A stretch of 64,000 nucleotides of DNA from Promethearchaeota archaeon. GTDB taxonomy: Archaea; Asgardarchaeota; Lokiarchaeia; Sigyniarchaeales; SOKP01. The DNA is taken from assembly GCA_016840165.1 (NCBI GenBank), contig JAEOSU010000051.1:96001-160000 (forward strand). Direction: 5' to 3'. How positions within the stretch are numbered: the stretch's first letter is position 1; every line of letters begins with the position of its first letter. Shown here piece after piece: positions 7,250-24,941 of this stretch. Position numbers and translations under genes: made by a program. The notes beneath the pieces were generated by a model that did not search any database, had not been told where the DNA came from, and worked only from the letters and a program-made list of their open reading frames with translations.

Positions 7250-8482
7250 TTATTGATCTTTAGGCACTTTAATTTCAATATCAGAAAGAGGGTAAGAACT
7301 ACAAGGATGAATATATCCATATTTTTTGTCCGCGGCTCGCCTCCAATCCGAAATCGGGTTGACGAAGACTTCACCGGAAATTAATTGCGATCGGCAAAAC
7401 CCACACTCACCTGAGCGACATTTTGAAGGAGGCGCAAACTTTGCTCTTTCCATTGCGACAATTAAAGATTCTGTAGCTAATGCGGGGATTTCTTCTGTCA
7501 ATTCCCCCATATGAACAATCATCTTAAAGGATTTTTCAGCAAGTTCTTGGGGATATCCAGGAAGTCCAACCACATCCTTAACTTCTCCAAAAGCTTCTCT
7601 TCTAATACGTCTTAATGCAAGATTAAATTGTTCTAATTCCTTCTCAACGAAATTGTACATAATCTGTGGACCACATAAGAAAATAGAACTATTATCGATA
7701 TTGCAATGCTTTCTAATAATATCAGCAGTGATAAACCCTTGTTCACAACCTTCTAATGAAACCACTTCACAGCTTAAAATGTATATTATCTTGAATTTCT
7801 CTGGATATTTTTTTTCTAACGCTTTAAGTTCGTCGTAGTAAATAATATCATCCTCATTACTACTGCCATATAATAAGGTTAATTTCGCGTCAATTGTATT
7901 CTCAATAATCGCTTTTGCGATTGAACGAAAGGGAGTAATCCCCGAGCCACCTGCTATACCTACAATTTGTTTGGAATCTCTTAAGCGATCAAAGTAGAAA
8001 AAGCCTTCAGGCCCAGAACTTTCAATCTGCGTACCAACTTCCCAATGATCCCAAATATAAGATGTTAAAAATCCAGCTTCTTCCTTTCTAATGGTCAATT
8101 CATAAAAACCCTTAAGCGCATCATTAGGAGAAGATGCAATTGAATAAGGTCTCGTTATTTCTGTTCCATTTACATTAACTTTCAAGCTTAAATATTGCCC
8201 TGGCCTGAAGTAAGCGAGCTCAGTTGTACCCAAATCTTTATTTGGTATCAATTTAAAAGTTTTTGTGCTCTTTGTCTCATTTTTTATGCTCTTAATAATT
8301 AAAAATTGTCGAATAGGATGAAGCTTAGTAGCTAATTCATTCATAGGATCTGTTGTGATAGGTTCACTAGATGCTTTTTCAAAACGTTTCTTTCTACTTG
8401 TAGATAATTTCATAAAGGCAAGTAAATCGCGTGAAGTGCTTTTAATAGTAACATCCAATCTTTTATTATCTTCTTGATTCAT
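7250..8482 (-). CDS. FAD/NAD(P)-binding reductase with C-terminal 2Fe-2S domain (PaaE/Hcr-like), copy 1
   Basis: RPYS (FAD), GGSGITPF (NAD), LCGP, CRSGECGFC..C; 4-nt ATGA overlap with upstream gene. Confidence 0.9.
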   Translation of the reverse strand: MNQEDNKRLDVTIKSTSRDLLAFMKLSTSRKKRFEKASSEPITTDPMNELATKLHPIRQFLIIKSIKNETKSTKTFKLIPNKDLGTTELAYFRPGQYLSLKVNVNGTEITRPYSIASSPNDALKGFYELTIRKEEAGFLTSYIWDHWEVGTQIESSGPEGFFYFDRLRDSKQIVGIAGGSGITPFRSIAKAIIENTIDAKLTLLYGSSNEDDIIYYDELKALEKKYPEKFKIIYILSCEVVSLEGCEQGFITADIIRKHCNIDNSSIFLCGPQIMYNFVEKELEQFNLALRRIRREAFGEVKDVVGLPGYPQELAEKSFKMIVHMGELTEEIPALATESLIVAMERAKFAPPSKCRSGECGFCRSQLISGEVFVNPISDWRRAADKKYGYIHPCSSYPLSDIEIKVPKDQ

Positions 8483-10050
8483 TCAATAACCCCCTCTTTT
8501 ATTAGTGATTGTATAGTAAACAAGGCGGCTGTTTCCCCATCCTTTAATGAACTACTATAACCATGTCCTCGTAATCCAAAGCCTCCACAGAATTCTAATC
8601 CTTTAATATGCTTTTCATCATTCATATTTTGAAGCCGTGGTACGACTGAATCCCAGGAGTCTAATTCATAGCCATAAATTACCCCATTATATGTTCCAGT
8701 AAATCTTGAAAACGTTTCTGGTGTAGCAATTTCAATTTCTTCGATATGATCTCGTATTTGAGCACCAGTTGCGTTTTCGAAATTTTTAATTAATCCTTCA
8801 GCAAATTTCGTTTTAAGGTCAAAATATTCCTCGGGCTTAACATTATCCCAAGCTCCTGGACGAAACGCAGATGTGATCGAGATGATGCATGTTCCCGGTG
8901 GTGAACAATTAGGGATTGCTTTATTAAGGCATATTGATGCTTGAACTTTAGGTACTTCTAAATCAATAAGAGAATCATAAAGTTGATCTGTATCCATAGT
9001 ATCACATATAAAATAACTATAATCATTAAGTCCCAATTCATCTGCGGTGGTGTCTAATCCCATATATACCACTATAGTTGTAATACCATGTGTACGAGCA
9101 TTAATCTCCTTAAATGCAATTTCAGGAACTTCTGACTTTGGATGAATTAACTTATTATAAGTTAGTGTCTTGGATGCATTGCATATTAAATGATTTGTAT
9201 TAATCACTTCCCCATTTTGAGTTTCAATTCCCCATACTTGTCCATCTTTTACTAAAATCTTTTCTACTTTCGTATTATATTCAATTTTACCACCATATTC
9301 TCTAATTTTTGCTTCAATTGCAGAGGTATATTCATGAGATCGCATTTTTGGAATATAACCTCCTTTTAAAACATATCCATACACCATCGATGCAAAAACA
9401 GTAGTATTTGCTCTACTTGTGGGAACTCCTAAATACAACCAGTATGCATTTAATAACGCTCTTGCTTTTTTAGGAATATTAAGTGCATCTTGGACGTCAT
9501 CAATAGGATATGCAGCAGTCCTTAAAAAATTCGTATGTTCCCGTAATAGTACGTCCTGGTCAGGGTTGCCTCTCATTCTACCTACATAATTTGTAGCCTC
9601 ATCAATTTCTTTTCCTAATTGGAAAAAATTTTTTATTGATTGTTTGGATCCTGGGACTTGTCTCTCAATAGCCTCAATAAAATCCTCAATACCGAAAGGT
9701 AATACAGCATCAATTTTCTCTTCTGGATTAGTCACTATCAAGCGATAAGCCTCAGGTACGGGTACAAATTCTGTATCTATTTGTAATTTATCTTGAAGAA
9801 GTCTCCGAATCCCTCCATTCTGTTCTGGCGTCCCATAATCATATAATTCGTGCAAAGATGTCTCAAATTCGAATCTTCCTCTCACATAACTCGATGCGAA
9901 GCCACCAGGTAGATTATGTTGTTCAAGTAGAAGAACTTTTGCTCCCTTCATCGCAACACGAGCCGCTGCAACCAAACCCCCATTTCCTGCCCCGATTACG
10001 ATGACATCATAAGTTCTATTATCTTTTCCTTTATTATTTTGTTCATTCAT
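8479..10050 (-). CDS. phytoene desaturase/retinol saturase (CrtI/RetSat)-family FAD oxidoreductase, copy 1
   Basis: IGAGNGGL dinucleotide fold, EQHNLPGG, RGRFEFE, ATPETF, GVIYG. Confidence 0.85.
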   Translation of the reverse strand: MNEQNNKGKDNRTYDVIVIGAGNGGLVAAARVAMKGAKVLLLEQHNLPGGFASSYVRGRFEFETSLHELYDYGTPEQNGGIRRLLQDKLQIDTEFVPVPEAYRLIVTNPEEKIDAVLPFGIEDFIEAIERQVPGSKQSIKNFFQLGKEIDEATNYVGRMRGNPDQDVLLREHTNFLRTAAYPIDDVQDALNIPKKARALLNAYWLYLGVPTSRANTTVFASMVYGYVLKGGYIPKMRSHEYTSAIEAKIREYGGKIEYNTKVEKILVKDGQVWGIETQNGEVINTNHLICNASKTLTYNKLIHPKSEVPEIAFKEINARTHGITTIVVYMGLDTTADELGLNDYSYFICDTMDTDQLYDSLIDLEVPKVQASICLNKAIPNCSPPGTCIISITSAFRPGAWDNVKPEEYFDLKTKFAEGLIKNFENATGAQIRDHIEEIEIATPETFSRFTGTYNGVIYGYELDSWDSVVPRLQNMNDEKHIKGLEFCGGFGLRGHGYSSSLKDGETAALFTIQSLIKEGVIE

Positions 10051-10234
10051 TAAATCTAACCTTTTAGAAAGATAAATTAATAGAAATTATTTCAATAAAT
10101 CTTTTTCTTAATTAATACATTATTTTTCTAAGAAGTAGAAAATATTAATAAACTAAAAGATCATAAATCTATAATTAAATAGCAATAATTCAAATTAAAA
10201 AAAAGAATATAGTTAATTTTTAGGTGAAAATAAG

Positions 10235-13201
10235 TTGAAAACATTAACTGTTGATGAAAAGATTGAGGACTTTAAAAGTCAACTAAATTTGCTGGCTATG
10301 ATATTTGATACCCGCAGAAAAATGCGTAGAGAGATCCAAAATGAGAAAACGGGTTTTACTTTTAATGCAAAATATCAATTTAAAACGAAAGATGATAAAG
10401 TTAATCTTTATGTTATTTTTAAAGATGGTAAAATGACAGTTTATGATGGTAAAATTGATGATCCAAACATTACCATCTATTACAAAGATAAAGAAACCTT
10501 GGCAAACCTTTATGATAAGAGTGCTGATGAATCTCTTGATTATCTCTTAACAAATGAAATGGGTTATGATGGTAATATGTCCTATCTTACCAAGTTCTCT
10601 TATCTTACTTCACTTGTCATGGGTGCCAAAATTAAAGATTATAAAGGACCAGAAAATCGATTAATGTACCCCATTGAAGACATTGATAAAGGAGAGAAGA
10701 GTAGGAAGATTAAAAATGAAAGTCTGAATTATAAAGTCGATAATGTTAAGGCATTGGATGATCCTTATTTAGCAAAATACACTTTAGATGACTTTCCTCG
10801 CTTAAAATATTTAAAAAATAGACGATTTGCCTTAAAACCAGCAATTTGCGTCGAAAGGGCAAAGTTAGTAACTGAATATCATCAGGAGAATGGATTTGAA
10901 ACAGATAAATCTGGAAAACCTTTTGATCCAGAACTAAGACAGGCGGGAGCAGTAAATTATATTATGACTCATAAAGAACCAATTATTCATGATCATCATT
11001 TAATTGCAGGATCTACAACTTCAAAAGAAGTGGGTATCCCTATGTATCCCGAATTAATTGCAACTGCAATCTGGCCTGAACTAAAAACAATCTGTGATCG
11101 CGAACTTAATCCTAACGATATTTCTGATAAAGATGCAGATATTTTAAGCTTAGAAGTGTTCCCCTATTGGATGGAGCGAAATGTCAGAGAGCATTGTAGA
11201 AATAAATTCAACAATCCTAAATCACAAAAGTTGGAGGAAGGATGGGTTTTCTATTTTATGATGAAGACCAACGCAATAAGCCATACGGTTCCCGGTTTTC
11301 CAATGGTTCTCAACGAGGGATTATTGAGTGTTAAACAAAAAGCCGCTAATTTGGAGCAGAAAGCTACATCCTCTGAAGAGAAGAATTTTTATAATGCTAT
11401 ACAGATAACCATTGATGGAGTTATTACGTATTCAAATCATTTAAGTGACCATGCTTTAAAGCTTGCTGAAACATTAGACCCTAATGATCCAAAACAAGAG
11501 GTACGCATAGAAGAATTAAAACAAATCTCTAAGATCTGTAAAAAGGTACCAGCCCATCCTGCTGAGACGTTACATGAAGCTATTCAATCAATATGGACAA
11601 GCTTTGTTTGCTTACATTGTGAAAATGCGAATTCTGCACTGTCCATAGGGCGATTAGATCAAATGTTACAGCCATTTTTCCTTAAAGAGATACAAAAAGC
11701 TTCAAATGACAGGGAAAGAGAAGATGTAGTGAAAAAGGCAATCGAACTTGTAGGATCACTATTTGTTAGAATAAATGATCATGATCCATTAATGCCAAAC
11801 GTAGGATGGAAGCTATTTGGCGGTAGTTCTTCGGATGATACTGTAACCGTCGGTGGAGTCGATAAAAACGGTGATAATGCGGTAAATGATATGACTTACA
11901 TTATTTTAAAAACAAATGAGATGTTAGGATTCCAAGATCCCAATATGAATGCCCGATACCATTCAGGGATTAATTCAAAAGAATATCTGCGTCGCTTATG
12001 CGAAGTAAACGTTAATATGGGTGCCTCACCTAGCATCCATAACGATAAAACAATGATCGAAGCATTAATCCATGAGGGATTTTCACTTGAGGATGCTCGA
12101 GGTTGGGCTGCTACAGGTTGTGTAGAGCCTACGATTGTAGGCAAACATTACGGTCACACAAATTGTATGTTATTAAATTTAGTTGCCCCACTCGAAATGG
12201 CATTAAACAATGGTGCTATTCCCTTAACAGGGGATTTAATAGGTCCAGCGACAGGAGACACAAGATCTGCGTTTTCTACCTTTCAAGATTTCTACGATGC
12301 TTACAAAACTCAACTAAAATATTTAGCTGAACAATCCATAGAGATTAATAACTACCTTGGAGAATCACATAAATATGTACATCCTACTCCTTTATTATCA
12401 GCATTTTATGAGGGACCTTTAGAAAAGGGAAAAGATCTAATTCACGGCGGCGCCATTTATAACACTTCTGGGGTTGCTCTTGTAGCCTTAACAGATGTTG
12501 TTGATAGCTTGTTAGTGATCAAGGATCTAGTCTATGAAAAGAAAGAATTTGATTTTGCAACCTTAATGGATGCTATCGAACATAATTTTGAAAATGAATA
12601 TGAATCTATTTTGAAAAAAATAGAAAATGTACCAAAATTCGGCAGCGGTGAGGATGGTACCATTGAACTCGCTCAAGATTTGATTGATTACTGCTATGAA
12701 ATATATAATTCTGCTAAAAATTATAGAGGTGGGAAATATTTAGTGGGTTATTGGTCTATTAGCTATCATACTGGTTTTGGAATGCTTACTGGGGCATTGC
12801 CTTCTGGAAGGAAAAAAGGAAAAGCCTTAACTCCTGGCTTAACACCTGCCCCAGGAACTACTGATATCTTACTTCCGAGTATTCGAAGTGTTGGTAGTTT
12901 AAATCATTTAAAGATGGCCAACAATGCTTCTTATAATGTAAAATTAGTCCCCCATCCTGGTGATTCACATAAAGAAACTCTTGACCTATTTAATAGTTAT
13001 GTTCAAAGCTTTTTCGATCTAGGAGGCATGCAGTGGCAATTTAATGTAATTAAAACAGAAACTCTTAGAAATGCAATGGAGCATCCGATGGATTATCGTT
13101 GGTTACTAGTAAGAGTGTCGGGCTATAATGCTTACTTTACGAAACTCAATAAAAATATGCAATTAGAAATAATTGAACGACATGAGTATCAATCAAAATA
13201 A
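10235..13201 (+). CDS. glycyl radical enzyme (PFL2/dehydratase class) with N-terminal SCP2-like domain
   Basis: SIGRLDQ, single-Cys loop GCVEP, Gly loop LLVRVSGY; N-terminal ~130 aa has an SCP2 pattern; TTG start preceded by AGGTGA. Confidence 0.88.
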   Translation: MKTLTVDEKIEDFKSQLNLLAMIFDTRRKMRREIQNEKTGFTFNAKYQFKTKDDKVNLYVIFKDGKMTVYDGKIDDPNITIYYKDKETLANLYDKSADESLDYLLTNEMGYDGNMSYLTKFSYLTSLVMGAKIKDYKGPENRLMYPIEDIDKGEKSRKIKNESLNYKVDNVKALDDPYLAKYTLDDFPRLKYLKNRRFALKPAICVERAKLVTEYHQENGFETDKSGKPFDPELRQAGAVNYIMTHKEPIIHDHHLIAGSTTSKEVGIPMYPELIATAIWPELKTICDRELNPNDISDKDADILSLEVFPYWMERNVREHCRNKFNNPKSQKLEEGWVFYFMMKTNAISHTVPGFPMVLNEGLLSVKQKAANLEQKATSSEEKNFYNAIQITIDGVITYSNHLSDHALKLAETLDPNDPKQEVRIEELKQISKICKKVPAHPAETLHEAIQSIWTSFVCLHCENANSALSIGRLDQMLQPFFLKEIQKASNDREREDVVKKAIELVGSLFVRINDHDPLMPNVGWKLFGGSSSDDTVTVGGVDKNGDNAVNDMTYIILKTNEMLGFQDPNMNARYHSGINSKEYLRRLCEVNVNMGASPSIHNDKTMIEALIHEGFSLEDARGWAATGCVEPTIVGKHYGHTNCMLLNLVAPLEMALNNGAIPLTGDLIGPATGDTRSAFSTFQDFYDAYKTQLKYLAEQSIEINNYLGESHKYVHPTPLLSAFYEGPLEKGKDLIHGGAIYNTSGVALVALTDVVDSLLVIKDLVYEKKEFDFATLMDAIEHNFENEYESILKKIENVPKFGSGEDGTIELAQDLIDYCYEIYNSAKNYRGGKYLVGYWSISYHTGFGMLTGALPSGRKKGKALTPGLTPAPGTTDILLPSIRSVGSLNHLKMANNASYNVKLVPHPGDSHKETLDLFNSYVQSFFDLGGMQWQFNVIKTETLRNAMEHPMDYRWLLVRVSGYNAYFTKLNKNMQLEIIERHEYQSK

Positions 13202-13241: not shown

Positions 13242-14138
13242 ATGAAAATTAAACCTTTAGTAGTAGATATTAAGAGAAATGCCTTAGATGATGGTCCGGG
13301 GATAAGAACATTAATCTTTTTCAAAGGCTGTCCATTATCTTGTGCTTGGTGTCAAAATCCAGAAGCTAAATCTCCAACAAAAGAGCTATATTTTGATCGC
13401 GATAAATGTATTGAATGCGAGATGTGCTTAACGAGATGTGAACAGAATGCTATAGATTTTGAATATGAATATCGTATTCATCGAAATCTGTGCAATTTAT
13501 GCGGTGCTTGTATTAATATCTGCCCAAACGATGCTTTAAAATTTGTAGGTAAAGAATACAGCATTGATGAATTAGTAAAGATTATATTAAAGGATAAAGT
13601 CTTTTTTGATAATTCTAATGGAGGGGTAACCCTTTCGGGAGGAGAACCGCTTTACCATATTGATTATGTCCATGATTTATTAATTAAATTAAAAAAAAAT
13701 AAGATTCATACCTGTATAGAGACATGTGGACTCTATAATCAGTCAGAATTTAATGAACTTATTTTACCATACATAGATTTAATCTATTTTGATTTGAAGA
13801 TTTTTAATCCAGAATTACATGCTCAATATTGTCAAGTCTCAAATCAAAAAATTCTTGAAAATTTCGAAGATTTAATTAAGAAACATAAAGAACTACTGCC
13901 ACGGATTCCGCTAATTCCTAATATAACCGATACCCCTCAAAATTTAACGGATTTAGCAAAATATTTAAAATCATTAAATATCAAAACTATTGGACTACTC
14001 CCTTATAATCCATTATGGATCTCAAAATCCGAGAAAATTGGAATAAGGCCAATGTATAATTATTCTCGGTGGTTAAACAAAGATGAGAAAGAAAAAATTA
14101 AACTCATTTTTTCTGAATTTGAATTTAAAGATTTTTAA
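13242..14138 (+). CDS. glycyl-radical activating enzyme (radical SAM with ferredoxin insert)
   Basis: DGPGIRT, GCPLSCAWCQNPE, two CxxCxxCxxxC motifs, GGVTLSGGEP. Confidence 0.93.
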   Translation: MKIKPLVVDIKRNALDDGPGIRTLIFFKGCPLSCAWCQNPEAKSPTKELYFDRDKCIECEMCLTRCEQNAIDFEYEYRIHRNLCNLCGACINICPNDALKFVGKEYSIDELVKIILKDKVFFDNSNGGVTLSGGEPLYHIDYVHDLLIKLKKNKIHTCIETCGLYNQSEFNELILPYIDLIYFDLKIFNPELHAQYCQVSNQKILENFEDLIKKHKELLPRIPLIPNITDTPQNLTDLAKYLKSLNIKTIGLLPYNPLWISKSEKIGIRPMYNYSRWLNKDEKEKIKLIFSEFEFKDF

Positions 14139-14262: not shown

Positions 14263-16050
14263 ATGGGAAAAATCTTAAGAATTGATTTAGGATCTAAGAA
14301 CTTTACCACAGAAGATGTAGATCCTGAATTAGAAGAAAAATATATTGGTGGAGCGGGAGTTGCAGCTGCAATCTTCATCAAGGAAGTTCCTCCAAATATA
14401 GATCCATATGATCCTCAAAACCTCCTTATCTTTTCTGTTGGTCCAATTTGTGGAACTGCAATCCCCTACTGTGGTAGACATTTTGTTATGGCAAAATCTC
14501 CCTTAACTAGAATTCTAGGTGAATCTTCTGCTGGTGGATTTTTTGGAAATGAATTAAGAAGAACGGGGTATGATCATATTATCATTAGCGGAGTGAGTGA
14601 GAGCCCTGTCTACTTATGGATTTATGACGATAATGTTGAAATTCGAGACGCTACAAAGCTATGGGGTAAAGGAACTAGAGAGACAGAGGATCTTCTATGC
14701 GCAGAAATTGATGATGATAAAGCAAAGATTGCATCAATTGGTCCTGCTGGAGAAAATCTTGTGAAATTTTCCTCAATTATGAATGAGAAAGGTCATGCTG
14801 CAGGACGTTGCGGGATGGGTGCTGTAATGGGCAGTAAAAATTTAAAAGCAATAGTTGTGCGTGGTACTAAAGATGTACCCATCGATAATAGAGATAAATT
14901 AATGGATTCAGCCCGAAAAATAAGAACAATTGGAAAAATTTTCCCCCTTGCTGTAGCAACGCAAGAATTAGGTACCCCTGGACATATGGATAATTATGTA
15001 AGTGCAGGAGATGTACCGATCAAGAATTTTACTCTAAGTAGATGGAAAGGAACAAAAAATATTGGATATTATGCACTAAAAGACAACTATGAAATAAAAC
15101 ATTATTCATGTTTTAATTGTGGGACTGCTTGTAGAGGAAATATAAATTTCAATAATGATTGGGTTGAGTGGCCAGAATATGAATTCTTAGCAATGTTGGG
15201 TTCTAACTTACTTGTGGATGATTTAGATGCCTTAGTAAGATGGAATATTATGGTTAATGATTATGGAATGGATTGCATTTCTCTTGGTGGTATTCTCGCT
15301 GTTTTTCTTGAAGCAATAGAGAGAAAGTTAATTGACATAAATTATGAGGAACTTGGTTTCGAAAAGGATCCTGAATCGGATGAATATATCATATGGAGTG
15401 CTATTTCAGCAATTGAGAATTTAATCACATTAACTGCATTTCGAAAGGAGATTGGCGATGATTTAGCTGATGGAGTACGACTCTTTTGTCAAAAATACAG
15501 TTTACCAGATGATCTTAATATTCAGGGAAAAGGTCTTGAGGTTCCTGCTCATGAACCTCGCTCAAATAATATGACTGCTTTAGATCTCGCTACATCTTCT
15601 CGTGGGGCATATCATGGTTTTGAACCTCTTCATTTATCATTTGCCGCCAATTTAAAAAAGGAAATAGGCCTTACAGAGCGAATTGATCCTTATAATACTA
15701 TTGAATCTGTAAGCGCAGTAAAGAAAATCCAAGATGCGTCTGAGGCTTATACTGCAACTGGTGGTTGCATTTTTGGGTTTTGGTATTCATCAGAGATTAC
15801 ACCATGGGTGGATGCTGTAAATGCAATTACTGGAAGATCCTACACAGTTGAAGATTGGGTCCAGATTGGAGAAAACTTATTTAATATGAAACGGAATTAT
15901 AATGAAAAATGCGGAATTACGAAAAAAGATGATTCACTTGGTTCAAGATTCTCTATACCTATTCCAAAAGGAGGAACTAAGAAAAACGTCCCTCCACTTA
16001 AAGAAATGCTTCAGAATTATTATTCTCTTAGAGGATGGAATATGGATTGA
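14263..16050 (+). CDS. aor: tungsten-dependent aldehyde:ferredoxin oxidoreductase (AOR family)
   Basis: KSPLT, IGPAGENLV, GRCGMGAVMGSKNLKA, CFNCGTAC, PEYE, DYGMDCIS. Confidence 0.88.
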   Translation: MGKILRIDLGSKNFTTEDVDPELEEKYIGGAGVAAAIFIKEVPPNIDPYDPQNLLIFSVGPICGTAIPYCGRHFVMAKSPLTRILGESSAGGFFGNELRRTGYDHIIISGVSESPVYLWIYDDNVEIRDATKLWGKGTRETEDLLCAEIDDDKAKIASIGPAGENLVKFSSIMNEKGHAAGRCGMGAVMGSKNLKAIVVRGTKDVPIDNRDKLMDSARKIRTIGKIFPLAVATQELGTPGHMDNYVSAGDVPIKNFTLSRWKGTKNIGYYALKDNYEIKHYSCFNCGTACRGNINFNNDWVEWPEYEFLAMLGSNLLVDDLDALVRWNIMVNDYGMDCISLGGILAVFLEAIERKLIDINYEELGFEKDPESDEYIIWSAISAIENLITLTAFRKEIGDDLADGVRLFCQKYSLPDDLNIQGKGLEVPAHEPRSNNMTALDLATSSRGAYHGFEPLHLSFAANLKKEIGLTERIDPYNTIESVSAVKKIQDASEAYTATGGCIFGFWYSSEITPWVDAVNAITGRSYTVEDWVQIGENLFNMKRNYNEKCGITKKDDSLGSRFSIPIPKGGTKKNVPPLKEMLQNYYSLRGWNMD

Positions 16051-16083: not shown

Positions 16084-17313
16084 TTAGCTTCTTGGTATTT
16101 CCATCTCAAGATTGCTTAATGGATATGAGGAACAAGGGTGAAAGTATTTCAATATTTTATCGGCTGTTCTCCTCCCATCATTTTTTGGATTTACAAATAT
16201 CTCACCAGAAATTAATTCCGAACGGCAAAAACCACATTGGCCGGATCGACATACCGAGGGAGGAGCCAATTTGGCTCGTTCCATTGCTACTAATACACTT
16301 TCATGTGCGTTAGCGGGGATATCTTTTGATAAATTTCCTATCCTTACTTTGATTTTAAATGATTTTTCTGCCATTTTCTTTGGATAATTAGGTAAAGAAA
16401 CTATATCCTTCACTTCTCCATACACTTCTTTTCGAATACGATTCGTTGGTAAGTTAAATTTACTCAATTCCTTATCAATAAAATCATACATTACTTGAGG
16501 GCCACAAATAAAGACGGAACTATTACTAAAGTCACAATATTTTTCAATTATACCTGCGGTAATAAATCCCTGTTCACAACCGTCTAAGCTAACCTCCTCA
16601 CAACTTAAAACATGGACAATTTTAATTTTCTCAGGATCTCTACTTTCATATTCCTTAAATTCATCATAAAATAGAATATCATCCTCTTCACTACTACCAT
16701 AAAGTAGAGTTAAACTGATATTTAATTTACCCTCCATAATCTCTTTTGCCATTGATCTAAATGGGGTTATCCCCGAACCGCCCGCTATTCCGATGACTTC
16801 TTTTAAGTCTCGAATGGGATCATAATAAAAATAACCATTAGGTCCAGAACTCTTTATTTTAGTATTTTTCTCCCAATTCTCCCATACATATTCTGTAAGG
16901 AATCCGTGGTCTTCTTTTCGAATCGTAATCTCATAAAAACCTCTTAACGCATCTGAAGGAGATGAAGATATAGAGTATGGACGTGTGATTGGAGTTCCAT
17001 CTACATCAACTTTTAAACTGAGGAACTGCCCCGCTCTGAAATAAGCAACTTTATCCGTACTTGAATCTGGATCGGGAATAAGCCTGTAGGTTTTAGCAGA
17101 TTTAGTTTCTTCTTTTATTTCACTAATCATTAAATTTTGAATTGAAGGATGTAGAAGTTGAGCTAGATTATTTACAGGATCAGATTTTATAAACTCCTCA
17201 GATGCTTTGTCAATATTTTTTCTACGTTGTGAAGTCAAATTTTTAAATGCTAATAAATCTCGAATATTTCCCTTTACTGATACCTTCAATTTCTGCTTTT
17301 GATCTTCTTTCAC
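16084..17313 (-). CDS. FAD/NAD(P)-binding reductase with C-terminal 2Fe-2S domain, copy 2
   Basis: RPYS, GGSGITPF, ICGP, CRSGQCGFC; collinear paralog of 7250-8482; GTGA overlap with upstream gene. Confidence 0.9.
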   Translation of the reverse strand: MKEDQKQKLKVSVKGNIRDLLAFKNLTSQRRKNIDKASEEFIKSDPVNNLAQLLHPSIQNLMISEIKEETKSAKTYRLIPDPDSSTDKVAYFRAGQFLSLKVDVDGTPITRPYSISSSPSDALRGFYEITIRKEDHGFLTEYVWENWEKNTKIKSSGPNGYFYYDPIRDLKEVIGIAGGSGITPFRSMAKEIMEGKLNISLTLLYGSSEEDDILFYDEFKEYESRDPEKIKIVHVLSCEEVSLDGCEQGFITAGIIEKYCDFSNSSVFICGPQVMYDFIDKELSKFNLPTNRIRKEVYGEVKDIVSLPNYPKKMAEKSFKIKVRIGNLSKDIPANAHESVLVAMERAKLAPPSVCRSGQCGFCRSELISGEIFVNPKNDGRRTADKILKYFHPCSSYPLSNLEMEIPRS

Positions 17314-18890
17314 TCAGAATCACCTGTTTCATTTAATTCTTGTAAAGTTAAAAAGGCGGCTATTTGACCAGAGAGTAAAGCATTTGTATAACTCTGGCAA
17401 TTTGCAGAAAAGCCTCCACAAAATTCTAGACCTTTAATATATTTTTCATTGTTCATTTCCATTAATCTGGGCATAAAAGAATCCCAAGGGTCTGTTTCAT
17501 ATCCGTATGCCGAACCTCCGAATGTTCCCGTATATCTTGCTAATGTTTGGGGCGTAGCAATTTCAATCTCTTCAATGTGTTCTCTTATAGAGGTTTTCGT
17601 TGCAAATTCAAAGGTATTTATTAAATGTCGAGCGATTTTATTTTTCAAATTAAAATAATCTTCAGAGCTTACATCCTTCCATGCTTCGGGAAGAAAAAAA
17701 GCTGTAATTGTAAGAATACATGTACCTGGTGGAGAGCAATCAGGGTTTACTTTATTTAAGCATATTGTTGCCTGAGCTTTAGGAGGATTTAATGTTTTAA
17801 AGGATTCATAAATTTCTTCAGTATTAGTTGTATCATAAATATGGTAACTATAATTTTCAATTCCTAATTCTTCAGCACTCGCATTCAAACCCAAATATAC
17901 AACAAAACAACTGATTGCATGTCGTCGGGCATTCATGGTTTTTAAAGCTTGTTTCGGTACCTCATTTTTAGGAAATATTAAATTATTATAAACTAATGTA
18001 GGGGATGCATTTGAAATCACGTGGTTTGTCTTAATTTTATCTCCTTGATTAGTTTCTACGCCTATAACTTGCCTATCTTTAACAATTACTTTATTTACTT
18101 TCGTGTTATAAAGGATTTTACCCCCTTTTTCTCTAATCAAGGATTCTAGGGCCGCAGTATATCCGTGGGAGCGATATTTTGGGACATATGCTTTTCGGAT
18201 TAAAAAATAATAATGCATAGCAGCATAAAAAGTAAAGTTAGCCCTGCTCGTTGGAATGCCAATATAGCACCAATAGGCATCTAAAATGTTTTGAGCCTTT
18301 TTAGGAATCTTTAATGCGTCATTTACCTCATCTAAAGTATATGGTGCCGTTTTTAAAAAGTTCTTATAATTTGCAATAAGTATATCTTTTTCTGGATTTC
18401 CTTCCGATTCAGTAATATAGCTAATTGCATTGGTAATTTCTTCTGAAAGTAATATATAATTTCGAATAGATTCCTCACTTCCAGGAACTTCTCTTTCCAT
18501 CATAGTTATATATTCTTCTCTTCCAAATGGAACAAGAACGTCTAATTTTTCATTTGGGTCATTAATAATTAATCGAAATGCTTCAGGAATCTCTACGAAC
18601 TCGATATTTAATCCCAAATCTTCCTCAAAAAGCTTCCTTATGGCTCCTTTATTTGATTTAGGGCCATAATCGCACAACTCATGCAATGTGCCCTCAAACT
18701 CAAATCGTCCTCGAACAAAACTAGTTGCAAATCCTCCAAGTAAATTATGTTGTTCGCAGAGCACAACTTTAGCACCTTCGATTGCCAATTGGGCTGCAGC
18801 AATCAATCCTCCATTTCCTCCCCCTATTACAACCGCATCAAAATCCTCCTTTAAAATCTGATCACTGATTTCTTCCACCATATAAGACAC
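17310..18890 (-). CDS. CrtI/RetSat-family FAD oxidoreductase, copy 2
   Basis: IGGGNGGL, EQHNLLGG, RGRFEFE, ATPQT; collinear paralog of 8479-10050. Confidence 0.85.
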   Translation of the reverse strand: MSYMVEEISDQILKEDFDAVVIGGGNGGLIAAAQLAIEGAKVVLCEQHNLLGGFATSFVRGRFEFEGTLHELCDYGPKSNKGAIRKLFEEDLGLNIEFVEIPEAFRLIINDPNEKLDVLVPFGREEYITMMEREVPGSEESIRNYILLSEEITNAISYITESEGNPEKDILIANYKNFLKTAPYTLDEVNDALKIPKKAQNILDAYWCYIGIPTSRANFTFYAAMHYYFLIRKAYVPKYRSHGYTAALESLIREKGGKILYNTKVNKVIVKDRQVIGVETNQGDKIKTNHVISNASPTLVYNNLIFPKNEVPKQALKTMNARRHAISCFVVYLGLNASAEELGIENYSYHIYDTTNTEEIYESFKTLNPPKAQATICLNKVNPDCSPPGTCILTITAFFLPEAWKDVSSEDYFNLKNKIARHLINTFEFATKTSIREHIEEIEIATPQTLARYTGTFGGSAYGYETDPWDSFMPRLMEMNNEKYIKGLEFCGGFSANCQSYTNALLSGQIAAFLTLQELNETGDSE

Positions 18891-22451: not shown

Positions 22452-24941
22452 TTAAACTTCAATTATGAAACCTGATTCGAATAAATCCCATTTATACTTT
22501 CCAATAGATCTTTCATTTATAATAATTTCAACAGGATCCTTTGGAGGGTCTCTCGCTTTAATTATCACTTTCTTCTTTCCTGGAATTAATTCTAATGAGA
22601 TTTTAACAATGTTCTCTTCAAATTGAAATTGCTTCATTAAGATTCCATCAATTCCAAATACAAATTCTCTTCTGAAATCAATAAATAAATCACCAAAATC
22701 TTTCTTGGTGTATGCAGTTGCCATAGCAGCGGTTCCAACACCCCAATCGAATGTAATTTGCCCTGGGACCCTATAATCACTTCCCGTATGACCATAATTT
22801 TCATACATAGCACCTCGATCGACACTATCTATTGTTCTTATATCTTTAATATTTCCTGGACTTATCTTTTCATATTCTTTAAGTAATTGTAGAGCCCAGC
22901 TAGCCCGTAGTGCTGCAATACCTCTTTCCATATACTCTTCATTATCGGTATGAAGATAATATTCCATATATGTTCTTACAAATAATGCTTGTCGGGCATC
23001 ACCTAATTCCACATCAGCATTTTGTACTCCAAAACCCCCAAAAGTATTGTAACTGATATAAGGCATATTCCATACTTGTTGAAATAAAGATAATACTGCT
23101 AATGCCTGCTCGCCATATTTTAAATATTCTCTTTCTTTTGTAATTTTAGCCAATTCCTTGAATCCTTCAGCACACCAATATATGCACAATGTATTCATAA
23201 CATGATTGTTTGTATAATTATCAAAAAAATCAAGAGGGAGCATAGTACAACTGAAAAAGGGTTCAAAGTCATGCCATTTATTGTTTGGAAGTATTTCATT
23301 TTGAATGAAATTACCAATTCTTTTAGCTAATGCTAATAACTCCTTATTCGGATAAACCTTATATAGTTCAGTCAGAAACATTAATACTGCTCCGGAACTA
23401 GCAGAATTTAATAAAGTATAATTTATTTCTATCTTTTCATCTTTCACCCCAATAAAGGTGGGAATAGCCCCATTTTCTTGTTCAAGTTTTTTAATAAGCT
23501 TTAATAGTTCTTTGCTCCTTTCTATAATTTTATCATTCTTTTTGAAATGCTCATACTGTTTTAAAGCCCAATATATCGTTAAGCAGGCATCAACTACGTT
23601 ATATTCATTACTATATAAACCTGCTTTTACACCATTTATGTATGAAATTATATCCGAATTTAACCCTGCAGGAAATATGATACTTGGAAAAATCCCAGAA
23701 TTTCTTGGTAAGTTTAAGGTTGTATTCAAAATACGTTCTGCCTTTTCCTTTAATCTAAATTCCTTCATTTCTTTCTCAAAATATTTTAACCCATATGCTG
23801 TTCTTATATTGAGAAACCAAGCATTATTCCAAACCTCAGCTGTCCTTGGTGAAAAAGCATGTCGTTGGGTATATTTATCAAACCATATCACTTTCTCTGG
23901 ATCGAAAATCATGTCATTTAACTGTTTATTAACTCCTACATTAGAACTGACTACCTCAGTTGAATTTCGTTCTCTATGAAGCGAAAGCTTTTCTGGGGTT
24001 ATGAAAGTTATCTCTTTTTTTTTGCTTCCTGCCCAGGATCTTTGCCAAATCCCGCCACATTCTTGATTATTTATAATAAAATTACCCCAAAATTTATGTC
24101 TATCGAAAATTGCCTTGAAACCTTCATAAACGTTAGAATTATATGGTAGGACTTGTGGCTCTAAACTCTCGTAGAGGTTTCTTCTTAAATATTTTTCCCA
24201 GAAAAACCGATTAATTGATTGGAGGATCTCAAGCCGACTATTATTTTTAAAAACAATGATATAAAATCGAAAAGTTAAATCAGTATCCTTAGGAATCTCC
24301 CAGAAATGAGTATCTTCATGTTTAAAAAAAGTATGTTCAGTAGGTACATAATTTCCGAATCCATAGAAGATTTGGGGATGATCATCTAAATCAGATTTCA
24401 TATCAAAATCCATAAAAGTTTGATATGGGCGATTATTTCTCAATGTCTTTAAATCAGGGATAAACGCTAATGCAAGATCTCCTTTCTTATAGATAATTAC
24501 TGGCGATCTGAAAACATGATCTCCAATGGCATACCCTTCTTTTGGTCGTAAGTGAGGTGCCCAAACAAAATCAGGGTTCTTATCCAAGAGAACTGCATAA
24601 TTGACACCTAATTTCGAGAATTCCAGTACTTGATTATTTGATAATTGATATCTGATATGGAGAACATTACTCTCTTCAAGACAGTAATCTAATTTTAAAA
24701 GAAAATCATTATCATTTAACTGATAATAAATTTTTTTCTTCTTGCTTTTTAGAAAGTTCAACGTTTTAGTTAAACGATTTTTACCTTTCCAATAGTTTAA
24801 CGTACTAAAACCTTTATTACTGCCAAGAATTGGGATCCACAAGTCATTATATCTAACCTCAATTACCTCAGAAGTAAAATTTTCCCATTCTTCAATTCTT
24901 ATTCGAATAAGTTCTTTTTCAAGAGTTTTTTGGCTCTTCAT
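22452..24941 (-). CDS. large hypothetical protein, probable (alpha/alpha)6 glycosidase-like C-terminal domain
   Basis: 829-aa ORF; aromatic-rich helical repeats, WHDFEPFFSC, YENYGH, FDWGVG; next to a sugar isomerase gene. Confidence 0.5.
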   Translation of the reverse strand: MKSQKTLEKELIRIRIEEWENFTSEVIEVRYNDLWIPILGSNKGFSTLNYWKGKNRLTKTLNFLKSKKKKIYYQLNDNDFLLKLDYCLEESNVLHIRYQLSNNQVLEFSKLGVNYAVLLDKNPDFVWAPHLRPKEGYAIGDHVFRSPVIIYKKGDLALAFIPDLKTLRNNRPYQTFMDFDMKSDLDDHPQIFYGFGNYVPTEHTFFKHEDTHFWEIPKDTDLTFRFYIIVFKNNSRLEILQSINRFFWEKYLRRNLYESLEPQVLPYNSNVYEGFKAIFDRHKFWGNFIINNQECGGIWQRSWAGSKKKEITFITPEKLSLHRERNSTEVVSSNVGVNKQLNDMIFDPEKVIWFDKYTQRHAFSPRTAEVWNNAWFLNIRTAYGLKYFEKEMKEFRLKEKAERILNTTLNLPRNSGIFPSIIFPAGLNSDIISYINGVKAGLYSNEYNVVDACLTIYWALKQYEHFKKNDKIIERSKELLKLIKKLEQENGAIPTFIGVKDEKIEINYTLLNSASSGAVLMFLTELYKVYPNKELLALAKRIGNFIQNEILPNNKWHDFEPFFSCTMLPLDFFDNYTNNHVMNTLCIYWCAEGFKELAKITKEREYLKYGEQALAVLSLFQQVWNMPYISYNTFGGFGVQNADVELGDARQALFVRTYMEYYLHTDNEEYMERGIAALRASWALQLLKEYEKISPGNIKDIRTIDSVDRGAMYENYGHTGSDYRVPGQITFDWGVGTAAMATAYTKKDFGDLFIDFRREFVFGIDGILMKQFQFEENIVKISLELIPGKKKVIIKARDPPKDPVEIIINERSIGKYKWDLFESGFIIEV

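What the first reader, a model, noticed from the sequence alone, without database searches (positions are those of the whole stretch)
10235..13201. Glycyl radical enzyme with N-terminal SCP2-like (sterol carrier) domain
Seen: 988 aa versus roughly 800-850 for typical GREs. The extra N-terminus (FNAKYQFKTKDDKVNLYVIFKDGKMTVYDGKIDDPNITIYY...DYLLTNEMGYDGNMSYL) follows the SCP2 strand/helix pattern. The catalytic loop has one Cys (GCVEP), so this is not a true PFL (CC). Inference: the domain delivers a hydrophobic substrate or targets membranes. Automated annotation would likely miscall it formate acetyltransferase.
Basis: partly seen in the sequence, partly recalled or inferred. Interest (0 to 1): 0.75.

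Follow-up and report, generated by a model that had tools for sequence, protein, structure and literature searches.

The report
Glycyl radical enzyme with SCP2-like module
An Asgard archaeon from marine sediment encodes an oxygen-sensitive radical enzyme that carries a built-in relative of the sterol-carrier (SCP2) lipid-binding domain, which suggests an unstudied oxygen-free way of cutting the polar end of a greasy molecule into an aldehyde; the substrate is unknown.

Summary
Window 10235-13201 (+) is a 988-aa glycyl radical enzyme (GRE). It has a complete core (aa 190-969), a single-Cys GCVEP loop and an extra N-terminus of about 185 aa.

That N-terminus is a divergent SCP2 relative:
- Pfam scores it just below threshold.
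- A profile of 72 fused N-domains aligns to 7 certified SCP2 proteins of the same genome at 95.3% probability. The 21 controls all scored 0.7% or less.

The core has the eliminase set (Cys629-x-Glu631, His350) but matches no characterised GRE. All NCBIfam equivalogs fall far below cut-off.

The family is conserved at full length in Asgard archaea and in Desulfatibacillum (62% identity). It sits next to an activase and often next to an aldehyde:ferredoxin oxidoreductase. In a sister clade the SCP2-like module is a separate 161-196-aa gene between GRE and activase.

Best reading: a radical eliminase that takes an amphiphilic substrate presented by the SCP2 module and makes an aldehyde. The substrate is unknown.

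The scan has reported this family before, on other genomes. I found no paper describing it.

The parts
10222..10227 (+). Shine-Dalgarno-like AGGTGA, 7 nt before the TTG start at 10235
   Evidence: Read directly from the sequence.
10235..13201 (+). Whole gene: 988-aa SCP2-like/glycyl radical enzyme fusion (stop codon included)
   Evidence: ORF list and translation. Full-length homologues of 982-1003 aa.
10235..10639 (+). SCP2-like N-terminal module, aa 1-135. The core homologous to SCP2 is aa 43-131 (nt 10361-10627), with the GN motif at aa 113-114.
   Evidence: Pfam SCP2 matches aa 44-123. hhalign gives 95.3% over aa 43-131, with controls. G113 is invariant and N114 nearly invariant in relatives.
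10640..10759 (+). Charged, poorly conserved linker of variable length, aa 136-175
   Evidence: Gappy, unconserved columns in alignment A2. Composition is rich in K, E, D and N.
10760..10819 (+). Conserved junction motif DPYLAKYTLDDFPRLKYLKN (aa 176-195) leading into the GRE core
   Evidence: P177, L179, L184, F187, P188 and R189 are invariant or nearly invariant in 20 fused N-termini.
10802..12781 (+). PFL-like ten-stranded barrel domain, aa 190-849
   Evidence: PF02901, E 7e-160.
11282..11284 (+). His350 (ISHTVPG), which aligns with His166 of propanediol dehydratase
   Evidence: Pairwise alignment to 5i2a. Conserved in 189 of 190 fused-family sequences.
11834..11839 (+). Asp534-Asp535 in GGSSSDDTVTVGG. 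Asp534 sits where propanediol dehydratase has Phe344.
   Evidence: Alignment. Conserved in 187 and 181 of 190 sequences.
12116..12130 (+). Cys loop GCVEP: catalytic Cys629 and Glu631
   Evidence: Translation. Each conserved in 189 of 190 sequences.
12830..13141 (+). Glycyl radical domain, aa 866-969, with RVSGY (Gly963 at nt 13121-13123)
   Evidence: PF01228, E 4.7e-23. Gly963 is present in 185 of 190 sequences; the other 5 are gaps.
13242..14138 (+). GRE-activating radical SAM enzyme with a ferredoxin-like insert
   Evidence: TIGR02494 scores 297.7 bits, above its cut-off of 174. Pfam Radical_SAM and Fer4. Adjacent in 25 of 29 fused loci that have at least 3.5 kb on both flanks.
14263..16050 (+). 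Tungsten-type aldehyde:ferredoxin oxidoreductase
   Evidence: AFOR_N and AFOR_C. Closest solved structures are 9mqx (2e-116) and P. furiosus AOR 1aor (1.2e-112). Within 8 kb in 19 of the same 29 loci.
7250..10050 (-). Divergent upstream pair: CrtI/carotenoid-isomerase-family FAD oxidoreductase (8479-10050) and FNR-type reductase with a 2Fe-2S domain (7250-8482). A possible partner cassette seen in Asgard loci only.
   Evidence: Within 3 kb in 10 of 18 low-GC loci and 0 of 11 high-GC loci.
16084..18890 (-). Second copy of the same pair: FNR/2Fe-2S (16084-17313) and CrtI-family (17310-18890)

Best explanation
The gene encodes a glycyl radical enzyme of the 1,2-eliminase (dehydratase/lyase) type. 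A divergent SCP2-like domain is tethered to its N-terminus by a flexible linker of about 40 residues.

Shown here:
- A complete GRE core with Gly963 and the Cys629-x-Glu631 plus His350 set.
- An adjacent activase.
- Homology of the N-domain to SCP2.
- Conservation of the whole architecture in Asgard archaea and in sulfate-reducing Desulfobacterota.
- A sister clade in which the same module is a separate small gene placed between GRE and activase.

Inferred mechanism:
1. The activase installs the glycyl radical, which generates the Cys629 thiyl radical.
2. The thiyl radical abstracts hydrogen from a carbinol carbon of the substrate's polar head.
3. Glu631 deprotonates the hydroxyl. The vicinal leaving group (hydroxyl, alkoxy or amine) departs, helped by His350 and the conserved polar pocket (Asp534, Asp535, His638, His641, Asn643, Tyr844, His845).
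4. The product is an aldehyde, which the neighbouring aldehyde:ferredoxin oxidoreductase oxidises to an acid.

The SCP2-like module is proposed to hold the hydrophobic tail and to present or gate the amphiphilic substrate at the channel mouth. This would resemble the way UbiJ/UbiT-type SCP2 proteins present isoprenoid lipids, or the way BSS-beta gates a GRE channel.

Candidate substrates are all untested: alkyl- or acyl-glycerols, long-chain 1,2-diols, sphingoid amino alcohols, archaeol-type or hopanepolyol-type lipids.
For: - GRE core and motifs.
- The eliminase-class set Cys-x-Glu plus His aligns to propanediol dehydratase Cys438, Glu440 and His166. Each is conserved in 189 of 190 family members.
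- Closest solved relatives are eliminases and A. fulgidus PFL2 (E 1e-98 to 7e-113). BSS scores 1e-51, MasD 2e-64 and PFL 4e-23.
- SCP2 homology. In addition, the fused-domain HMM hits Pfam-certified C-terminal SCP2 domains (34.6 and 48.3 bits) at 2.4e-9 and 2.2e-7. SCP2 structures are the top non-GRE PDB hits, in the same register.
- Split form: 8 of 8 c11 genes (one cut short by a contig end) lie beside or at the GRE match and match the fused-domain HMM, 7 of them at 1e-15 to 6e-20. They are 31-65% identical to the roughly 150-aa stand-alone hits.
- On the core tree the fused clade is monophyletic (0.96) and the split clade is monophyletic (0.835). Both are separate from the genome's other five GREs.
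- Synteny in 29 fused loci with at least 3.5 kb on both flanks: activase in 25, AOR within 8 kb in 19. AOR is present in both low-GC (14 of 18) and high-GC (5 of 11) loci.
- Enoyl-CoA hydratase lies in 8 loci.
Against:
- The SCP2 Pfam score is below the curated cut-off for the whole protein (16.5 against 21.3 bits).
- Only 7 of 20 fused and 11 of 40 mainly stand-alone relatives hit SCP2 at E <= 0.01.
- PDB SCP2 hits are not significant (E 0.14).
- AOR is missing within 8 kb in 10 of the 29 loci and the activase is missing within 3 kb in 4 of 29.
- The loci are related to one another, so these counts are not independent.
- The active-site pocket is polar and does not itself indicate a lipid.
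- CrtI-type neighbours occur only in low-GC loci.
- Six stand-alone SCP2-like ORFs in other Asgard genomes have no GRE nearby. The module family is therefore not GRE-specific.
- Residue roles are taken from pairwise alignments and from recalled literature numbering for GDH, PD, HypD and CutC.
Confidence: 0.55

Rival explanations
1. The SCP2-like module is an accessory or regulatory part with no lipid role. Like BSS-beta or MASS-delta, it would clamp the glycyl radical domain, gate the channel or manage activase access. The substrate would then be a small soluble diol, amino alcohol or similar.
For: - Accessory subunits that gate or stabilise GREs are known (passages of PMC12358834).
- The module exists as a separate subunit gene in a sister clade.
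- The conserved pocket residues are polar.
- Nothing here shows lipid binding.
Against: - The module is homologous to a domain family whose known members bind lipids.
- Conserved positions are mainly aromatic or hydrophobic: F49, F62, F83, Y117, F121.
- Enoyl-CoA hydratase neighbours in 8 loci suit an acyl-chain product, as do the V4R/TetR regulators.
Confidence: 0.25
2. It is an alkyl- or benzyl-succinate synthase-type enzyme, as proposed in print for Hermodarchaeota GREs. The SCP2 module would feed hydrocarbons to a fumarate-adding active site.
For: - Zhang et al. 2021 (PMC8163825, passages read) assign single-Cys Asgard GREs with 33-38% identity to A. fulgidus PflD to Ass/Bss.
- Relatives here carry Hermodarchaeota labels.
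- A full-length orthologue lives in the alkane/alkene degrader Desulfatibacillum.
- An SCP2 module could carry alkanes.
Against: - Similarity to solved BSS (1e-51) and MasD (2e-64) is far weaker than to eliminases (about 1e-100).
- Glu631 and His350 are conserved as in dehydratases.
- The fumarate-binding Arg sits 15 residues after the catalytic Cys in BSS and MASS (PMC12358834). The residue at that offset here is Cys644: Cys in 170, Ser in 12 and Ala in 7 of 190. This is an offset count only, not a structural alignment.
- The conserved neighbour is an aldehyde oxidoreductase, which fumarate-addition pathways do not need.
Confidence: 0.1
3. It is a pyruvate or 2-oxoacid formate-lyase, as the database names say, with an unrelated N-terminal add-on.
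For: Source names are 'formate acetyltransferase' and 'pyruvate formate lyase family protein'.
Against: - It has a single Cys instead of the Cys-Cys pair.
- TIGR01255 scores 107.5 bits against a cut-off of 994, and PRK09983 scores 394 against 1109.
- E. coli PFL scores only 4e-23.
Confidence: 0.02

Closest known systems
B12-independent glycerol dehydratase and 1,2-propanediol dehydratase (GRE C-O eliminases; PDB 1r8w, 5i2a)
   Same: - Same barrel and glycyl radical domain.
- GCVEP-type loop with Cys and Glu.
- The His aligned with PD His166 is present.
- Dedicated ferredoxin-type activase.
- An aldehyde product is expected.
- E 3e-98 and 4e-104.
   Different: - An extra SCP2-like module of about 185 aa.
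- At aligned positions PD His283/Ser284 become Ser467/Ala468, PD Phe344 becomes Asp534, and PD Val696 becomes Ile842.
- The residue roles are recalled, not tested here.
- The neighbour is a tungsten AOR.
Archaeoglobus fulgidus PFL2/PflD (PDB 2f3o)
   Same: - Best solved match, E 6.6e-113 over aa 201-982.
- Archaeal, single-Cys GCVE loop.
- Function still debated, according to passages of a 2026 review (PMC13450708).
   Different: - 776 aa, with no N-terminal module.
- Pocket residues differ, for example QENYEQAI against CENANSAL.
Trans-4-hydroxy-L-proline dehydratase HypD and choline TMA-lyase CutC
   Same: Same eliminase subfamily, E 2e-106 and about 1e-101.
   Different: - The NCBIfam equivalogs are not met: 433.6 against 1100 and 422 against 1050 bits.
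- The same genome has a true HypD elsewhere, at 1273 bits.
- The long N-terminus of the 1150-aa CutC (9f3w) did not match the module profile: its only hit (E 0.33) falls on the GRE-core part of the profile.
SCP2 domain proteins (PF02036; sterol carrier protein 2, and the SCP2 domains of UbiJ/UbiT and alkylsulfatases)
   Same: - Homologous over about 87 residues, including the G-N motif before the last helix.
- Used as a lipid-presenting add-on to enzymes in other systems (recalled knowledge).
   Different: - Too divergent for the Pfam cut-off.
- Carries an extra N-terminal helical stretch of about 40 aa.
- I found no paper describing it attached to a radical enzyme.
GRE accessory subunits (BSS beta/gamma, MASS beta/gamma/delta, HPAD gamma)
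   Same: In the sister clade the module is a small separate gene next to the catalytic subunit and the activase. That is the layout of an accessory subunit.
   Different: - It is not tied by any search here to the accessory subunits described in PMC12358834.
- No Fe-S or rubredoxin family is detected in it.

Membership tests
Glycyl radical enzyme superfamily | PFL-like barrel plus C-terminal glycyl radical domain with the RVxG motif | tested here: met
   PF02901 7e-160; PF01228 4.7e-23; RVSGY at aa 960-964.
Glycyl radical enzyme superfamily | Catalytic Cys on the Cys loop | tested here: met
   Cys629 in GCVEP, conserved in 189 of 190 sequences.
Glycyl radical enzyme superfamily | Cognate radical SAM activase | tested here: met
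   The gene at 13242-14138 scores 297.7 bits on TIGR02494, cut-off 174.
GRE 1,2-eliminases (dehydratase/lyase class) | Cys-x-Glu on the Cys loop | tested here: met
   Cys629-Val-Glu631 aligns to PD Cys438 and Glu440. That this motif defines the class is recalled knowledge.
GRE 1,2-eliminases (dehydratase/lyase class) | General acid His, at the position of GDH His164 / PD His166 | tested here: met
   His350 aligns to PD His166 and is conserved in 189 of 190 sequences.
GRE 1,2-eliminases (dehydratase/lyase class) | Elimination activity that gives a carbonyl product | not testable with these tools
   Support is contextual only: AOR within 8 kb in 19 of 29 loci.
Characterised GRE equivalogs (HypD, CutC, HpsG, HpfG, indoleacetate and 4-HPA decarboxylases) | NCBIfam equivalog score above the curated cut-off | tested here: not met
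   Best scores are 433.6 against 1100 (HypD), 422 against 1050 (CutC) and 378 against 1000 (HpsG). Positive control: a paralogue in the same genome scores 1273 for HypD.
Pyruvate formate-lyase | Adjacent Cys-Cys pair and the TIGR01255 equivalog | tested here: not met
   The loop is G-C-V-E. TIGR01255 scores 107.5 bits against 994.
X-succinate synthases (BSS/MASS) | Fumarate-binding Arg 15 residues after the catalytic Cys (BSS Arg508, MASS Arg492; PMC12358834) | tested here: inconclusive
   By offset the residue is Cys644, with no Arg in 190 sequences. The check was by offset, not by alignment to BSS.
X-succinate synthases (BSS/MASS) | Small beta/gamma accessory subunits encoded alongside | not tested
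   My ORF calls used a 90-aa minimum, so subunits of 60-80 aa would have been missed.
SCP2 (PF02036) | Pfam gathering score of 21.3 bits | tested here: inconclusive
   16.5 bits for the whole protein and 20.3 bits for aa 1-188. 21.1 bits in the six-frame scan, or 21.5 with neighbours in frame.
SCP2 (PF02036) | Profile-level homology to certified members | tested here: met
   hhalign 95.3%, E 2.4e-8, against at most 0.7% in 21 controls. HMM hits to certified SCP2 domains.
SCP2 (PF02036) | Alpha/beta SCP2 fold with a hydrophobic cavity, and lipid binding | not testable with these tools

The most novel reading that the evidence does not exclude
SCP2-like proteins are a new class of GRE partner, either fused or free-standing. 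They would extract a membrane or sediment lipid and feed its polar head into a radical eliminase. Together with a tungsten AOR, and in Asgard archaea with CrtI-type reductase cassettes, this would form an oxygen-free pathway for degrading ether, sphingoid or polyol lipids. The pathway would be shared by horizontal transfer between Asgard archaea and sulfate reducers.
Probability: 0.35. Interest if true: 0.85.

Novelty: new variant of a known kind. Interest (0 to 1): 0.66.

Why it matters
According to passages of a 2026 review (PMC13450708), every PFL-like GRE with a characterised function is bacterial, and archaeal clades lack validation. This family is a well-defined target:
- It is conserved and has a distinctive architecture.
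- It occurs in Asgard archaea, where 33 of 301 sampled genomes have a strong hit.
- It has a 62%-identical full-length orthologue in cultured Desulfatibacillum strains (WP_051327068.1, WP_073471989.1). The function can therefore be tested in a laboratory organism.

If the module really presents lipids, three things would follow:
- It would add a new kind of GRE accessory part.
- It would reveal an anaerobic route for breaking down amphiphilic lipids in marine sediments.
- It would correct both the database name 'formate acetyltransferase' and the published 'alkylsuccinate synthase' reading of such Asgard genes.

Tried and rejected
- **Structure.** The ESM Atlas does not hold the window's protein. 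For the stored homologue P0110 it has no model, and its feature hits were uninformative (best 0.84, a PFL-like cluster).
- **Context by exact look-up.** I used the search for related loci and the genome search instead.
- **Alignment A2 as a locus query.** It was rejected for lack of conserved stretches. I re-sent the single protein.
- **Module profile against the PDB.** No significant SCP2 hit (one search gave E 0.14-0.3). A certified Asgard SCP2 domain also reaches only E 0.024. I treat this as low sensitivity, not as evidence against homology.
A search with the split-form protein among longer proteins found nothing, which is weak evidence. The C-terminal SCP2 fusions I did find are on OYE/pyridine-nucleotide-disulphide-type enoate reductases, not on GREs.
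- **Stand-alone SCP2-like ORFs in six regions of other Asgard genomes.** None has a GRE, activase or AOR in the fetched region.
- **Other neighbours in high-GC loci.** These include a histidine kinase, subtilase, Dus, MFS, AIR-synthase-like, HAD, DUF362, GlpD-like and FAD-linked oxidase genes. They are not conserved across loci, so I did not use them.
- **Expression.** No RNA holder was listed.
- **Literature.** Searches 'glycyl radical enzyme'+'SCP2', 'glycyl radical'+'sterol carrier protein', 'SCP2'+'Asgard', 'glycyl radical'+'ether lipid' and 'glycyl radical'+'aldehyde ferredoxin oxidoreductase' returned no paper describing this architecture. The Hermodarchaeota paper's supplementary tables may list members of this family.
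- **Pyruvate formate-lyase reading.** Rejected (see rivals).


Full report
**What is there**

Window 10235-13201 (+) is one open frame of 988 aa. It starts at a TTG that has AGGTGA 7 nt upstream. Full-length homologues align from the first residues, so the start and the N-terminus are real.

Pfam finds a PFL-like domain at aa 190-849 (7e-160) and a glycyl radical domain at aa 866-969 (4.7e-23). Solved GREs align only from residue 186-201 onward. About 185 residues are therefore extra. They divide as follows:
- a module at aa 1-135;
- a charged, variable linker at aa 136-175;
- a conserved junction motif, DPYLAKYTLDDFPRLKYLKN, at aa 176-195.

For comparison, the other five GREs of this genome are 786-861 aa.

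**Is the module SCP2-like?**

Direct Pfam evidence is borderline. PF02036 matches aa 44-123 to profile positions 20-98 of 101. It scores 16.5 bits for the whole protein, 20.3 bits for aa 1-188 alone and 21.1 bits in a six-frame genome scan, against a cut-off of 21.3. Among relatives, 7 of 20 fused N-termini and 11 of 40 mainly stand-alone relatives hit SCP2 at E <= 0.01. The best E-values were 1.2e-5 and 1.1e-5.

I then made an independent test. The same genome encodes seven ORFs of 123-154 aa that pass the SCP2 cut-off. A profile of 72 non-redundant fused N-domains aligns to a profile of those seven at 95.3% probability, E 2.4e-8, over 87 columns (aa 43-131), with score 51.3. One reversed and twenty column-shuffled templates gave at most 0.7% and score 15.4.

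Two further results agree:
- An HMM of the fused N-domains finds the C-terminal domains of two enoate-reductase-like proteins of about 800 aa in other Asgard genomes, at 2.4e-9 and 2.2e-7. Pfam certifies those domains as SCP2, at 34.6 and 48.3 bits.
- Against the PDB, the top non-GRE hits of the module profile are SCP2 structures (1c44, 2c0l, 1qnd, 4uei) in the same register. They are not significant (E 0.14-0.3). A certified Asgard SCP2 domain reaches only E 0.024 against the same entries.

I conclude that the module is a divergent SCP2 homologue.

**What kind of GRE is it?**

The Cys loop is GCVEP (Cys629, Glu631) and the radical motif is RVSGY (Gly963).
- In the printed alignment to propanediol dehydratase (5i2a), Cys629 and Glu631 fall on Cys438 and Glu440, and His350 falls on His166.
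- That Cys-x-Glu plus His marks the eliminase/dehydratase class is established knowledge that I recall. It was not computed here.
- At other aligned pocket positions the protein differs: PD His283/Ser284 become Ser467/Ala468, PD Phe344 becomes Asp534, and PD Val696 becomes Ile842.

NCBIfam places it only in the broad PFL2-3 subfamily, at 551 bits, which is below that model's cut-off of 678. Every equivalog is far below threshold: HypD 434 against 1100, CutC 422 against 1050, HpsG 378 against 1000, PFL 107 against 994. As a positive control, a paralogue in the same genome scores 1273 bits for HypD.

Solved relatives rank as follows:

| Structure | E-value |
|---|---|
| A. fulgidus PFL2 | 6.6e-113 |
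| HypD | 2e-106 |
| Propanediol dehydratase (PD) | 4e-104 |
| CutC | about 1e-101 |
| Glycerol dehydratase (GDH) | 3e-98 |
| MasD | 2e-64 |
| BSS | 1e-51 |
| PFL | 4e-23 |

Across 190 family sequences the pocket is strongly conserved:

| Residue | Conserved in (of 190) |
|---|---|
| His350 | 189 |
| Cys629 | 189 |
| Glu631 | 189 |
| Asp534 | 187 |
| Asp535 | 181 |
| His638 | 189 |
| His641 | 186 |
| Asn643 | 186 |
| Tyr844 | 176 |
| His845 | 188 |

These 190 sequences are related and overlap between sources, so the counts show constraint, not independent events.

**The family and its split form**

Full-length relatives of 982-1003 aa, at 62-100% identity, carry Asgard labels: Lokiarchaeota, Promethearchaeota, Hermodarchaeota, Thorarchaeota and Freyarchaeota/Jordarchaeia. 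Others come from Desulfatibacillum aliphaticivorans and D. alkenivorans (62%) and from Desulfomonilia. All are named formate acetyltransferase or PFL family protein.

In 301 sampled genomes of the phylum, 69 have a hit to the 188-aa N-terminus at E <= 1e-3, but many of these are ordinary small SCP2 genes. Thirty-three genomes have a hit at E <= 1e-20. Where complete, those hits lie in frames of about 980-1020 aa, and they are concentrated in the window's own family. They include a second fused paralogue clade at 33-39% N-domain identity.

A metagenome scan with the Desulfatibacillum protein returned 75 loci.
- In seven of them (L096-L099, L101, L102, L109), a GRE 40-42% identical to P0110 lacks the N-module. 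It is complete at 812-841 aa in L096, L098, L099, L101 and L109.
- That GRE is followed directly by a 161-196-aa gene, and then by the activase where the contig reaches it (six of the seven).
- In L100 only a 102-aa piece of the small gene was called, just after the GRE match.
- All eight small genes match the fused-domain HMM. Seven match at 1e-15 to 6e-20; the piece matches at 4e-6.
- They are 31-65% identical to the roughly 150-aa 'hypothetical proteins' of Desulfobacterales, Desulfitobacteriaceae and others that were the stand-alone hits of the exhaustive search.

On a FastTree of 778 core columns, the fused sequences form one clade (support 0.96) and the split ones another (0.835). Both are apart from the five other GREs of this genome, including HypD. 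The tree has no characterised references beyond that HypD, so it does not place the family within the whole superfamily.

**Context**

I clustered ORFs of 103 related loci plus the window. The synteny counts below cover fused-type loci with at least 3.5 kb on both flanks. The window itself has all three neighbours but is not counted.

| Neighbour | All 29 loci | Low-GC (18) | High-GC (11) |
|---|---|---|---|
| Activase within 3 kb | 25 | 18 | 7 |
| AOR within 8 kb | 19 | 14 | 5 |
| CrtI-family oxidoreductase within 3 kb | 10 | 10 | 0 |
| Enoyl-CoA hydratase within 6 kb | 3 | 1 | 2 |

- Over all loci, enoyl-CoA hydratase occurs in 8, a TetR regulator in 5 and a V4R-domain protein in 3.
- The AOR of the window is closest to the canonical broad-range type: 9mqx at 2e-116 and 1aor at 1.2e-112.
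- In the window, the GRE-activase-AOR unit is bracketed by two copies of a CrtI/carotenoid-isomerase-family flavoprotein plus an FNR-type 2Fe-2S reductase.

**How it most likely works**

Shown: a complete, activatable GRE with the eliminase residue set; an SCP2-homologous module that is kept with this GRE clade whether fused or separate; and a recurrent aldehyde oxidoreductase neighbour.

Inferred:
1. The thiyl radical abstracts hydrogen from a carbinol carbon.
2. Glu631 and His350 promote loss of a vicinal leaving group.
3. The aldehyde formed is oxidised by the AOR, with reduction of ferredoxin.
4. In some bacteria the acid then enters CoA-dependent beta-oxidation-like steps.

The polar pocket, together with a lipid-carrier homologue on a flexible tether, suggests an amphiphile. 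Its head would sit in the barrel and its tail in the module. Which amphiphile is not resolved by any result here.

The main rival is that the module is a non-lipid gating or stabilising subunit. Passages of PMC12358834 describe BSS-beta plugging the substrate channel, so that precedent exists.

The published Ass/Bss reading of Asgard GREs (PMC8163825, passages) fits poorly, for the reasons listed under rivals.

**Novelty**

I found no paper describing a GRE with an SCP2 module. A 2025 preprint on Asgard lipid-transfer proteins mentions SCP2 only in passing and does not mention GREs (PMC12139934, passages).

The scan itself has reported the same family on other genomes, with similar conclusions. 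I reached the split-gene result before reading those notes.

I rate it a new variant of a known kind: a known enzyme class and a known domain in an undescribed, conserved partnership.

Noticed in passing
own genome G000: C27:31914-33857 (-), C63:140244-142184 (+), C8:43254-45209 (-), C6:3315-5453 (-), C36:14122-15705 (-): This Asgard genome carries six PFL-like GREs. One is a bona fide trans-4-hydroxy-L-proline dehydratase, at 1273 bits against a cut-off of 1100. The other four match no equivalog.
   Followed up: partly
window 22452-24941 (-): An 829-aa ORF has no Pfam, NCBIfam or PDB sequence match. It has 136 homologues at E <= 1e-10; where labelled, the listed ones are Asgard 'hypothetical proteins' of about 790-840 aa. 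One of them carries PF07944.
   Followed up: partly
window 7250-10050 (-) and 16084-18890 (-): Two paralogous cassettes, each a CrtI/carotenoid-isomerase-family flavoprotein plus an FNR-type FAD/NAD/2Fe-2S reductase, flank the GRE-activase-AOR unit. In related loci the cassette lies next to the GRE in low-GC loci only.
   Followed up: partly
L119:1362-3734 (+) and L120:3176-5587 (-), other Asgard genomes: Proteins of about 800 aa combine Oxidored_FMN, Pyr_redox_2 and a certified C-terminal SCP2 domain, in a 2,4-dienoyl-CoA/enoate-reductase-like layout. This is another case of an SCP2 module attached to a redox enzyme in Asgard archaea. Frames of about 756-821 aa with the same weak match recur in genus g40.
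   Followed up: partly
protein P0214 (985 aa, source unknown): A distant fused-family member reads GGAMQP where the others have GCVEP. It lacks both the catalytic Cys and the Glu, and it has Glu at the His350 column. It may be an inactive or repurposed member.
   Followed up: no
L059:5124-5684 (+) and the same cluster in L017, L018, L024, L026, L027, L062: In two of the seven loci that carry it (L059, L062), a 187-aa Roadblock/LC7-domain gene sits between the activase and the AOR. The other five were not mapped.
   Followed up: no
own genome G000: C54:315740-317666: Three of the genome's seven certified stand-alone SCP2 genes are clustered within 2 kb.
   Followed up: no
L093:14274-17930 (+) (also L046): In one high-GC lineage, a GlpD-like glycerol-3-phosphate-dehydrogenase-type flavoprotein (DAO+DAO_C) and a 572-aa FAD-linked oxidase (FAD_binding_4+FAD-oxidase_C) lie 4-6 kb downstream of the fused GRE. 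A V4R-domain gene lies upstream. This is a hint of glycerol-linked chemistry, but from a single lineage.
   Followed up: no
cluster of P0110: On a 6,517,073-base Desulfatibacillum contig the family member on record is only 493 aa (WP_043808209.1). Two other Desulfatibacillum records hold the full 988 aa. The short one may be a truncated copy in one strain.
   Followed up: no
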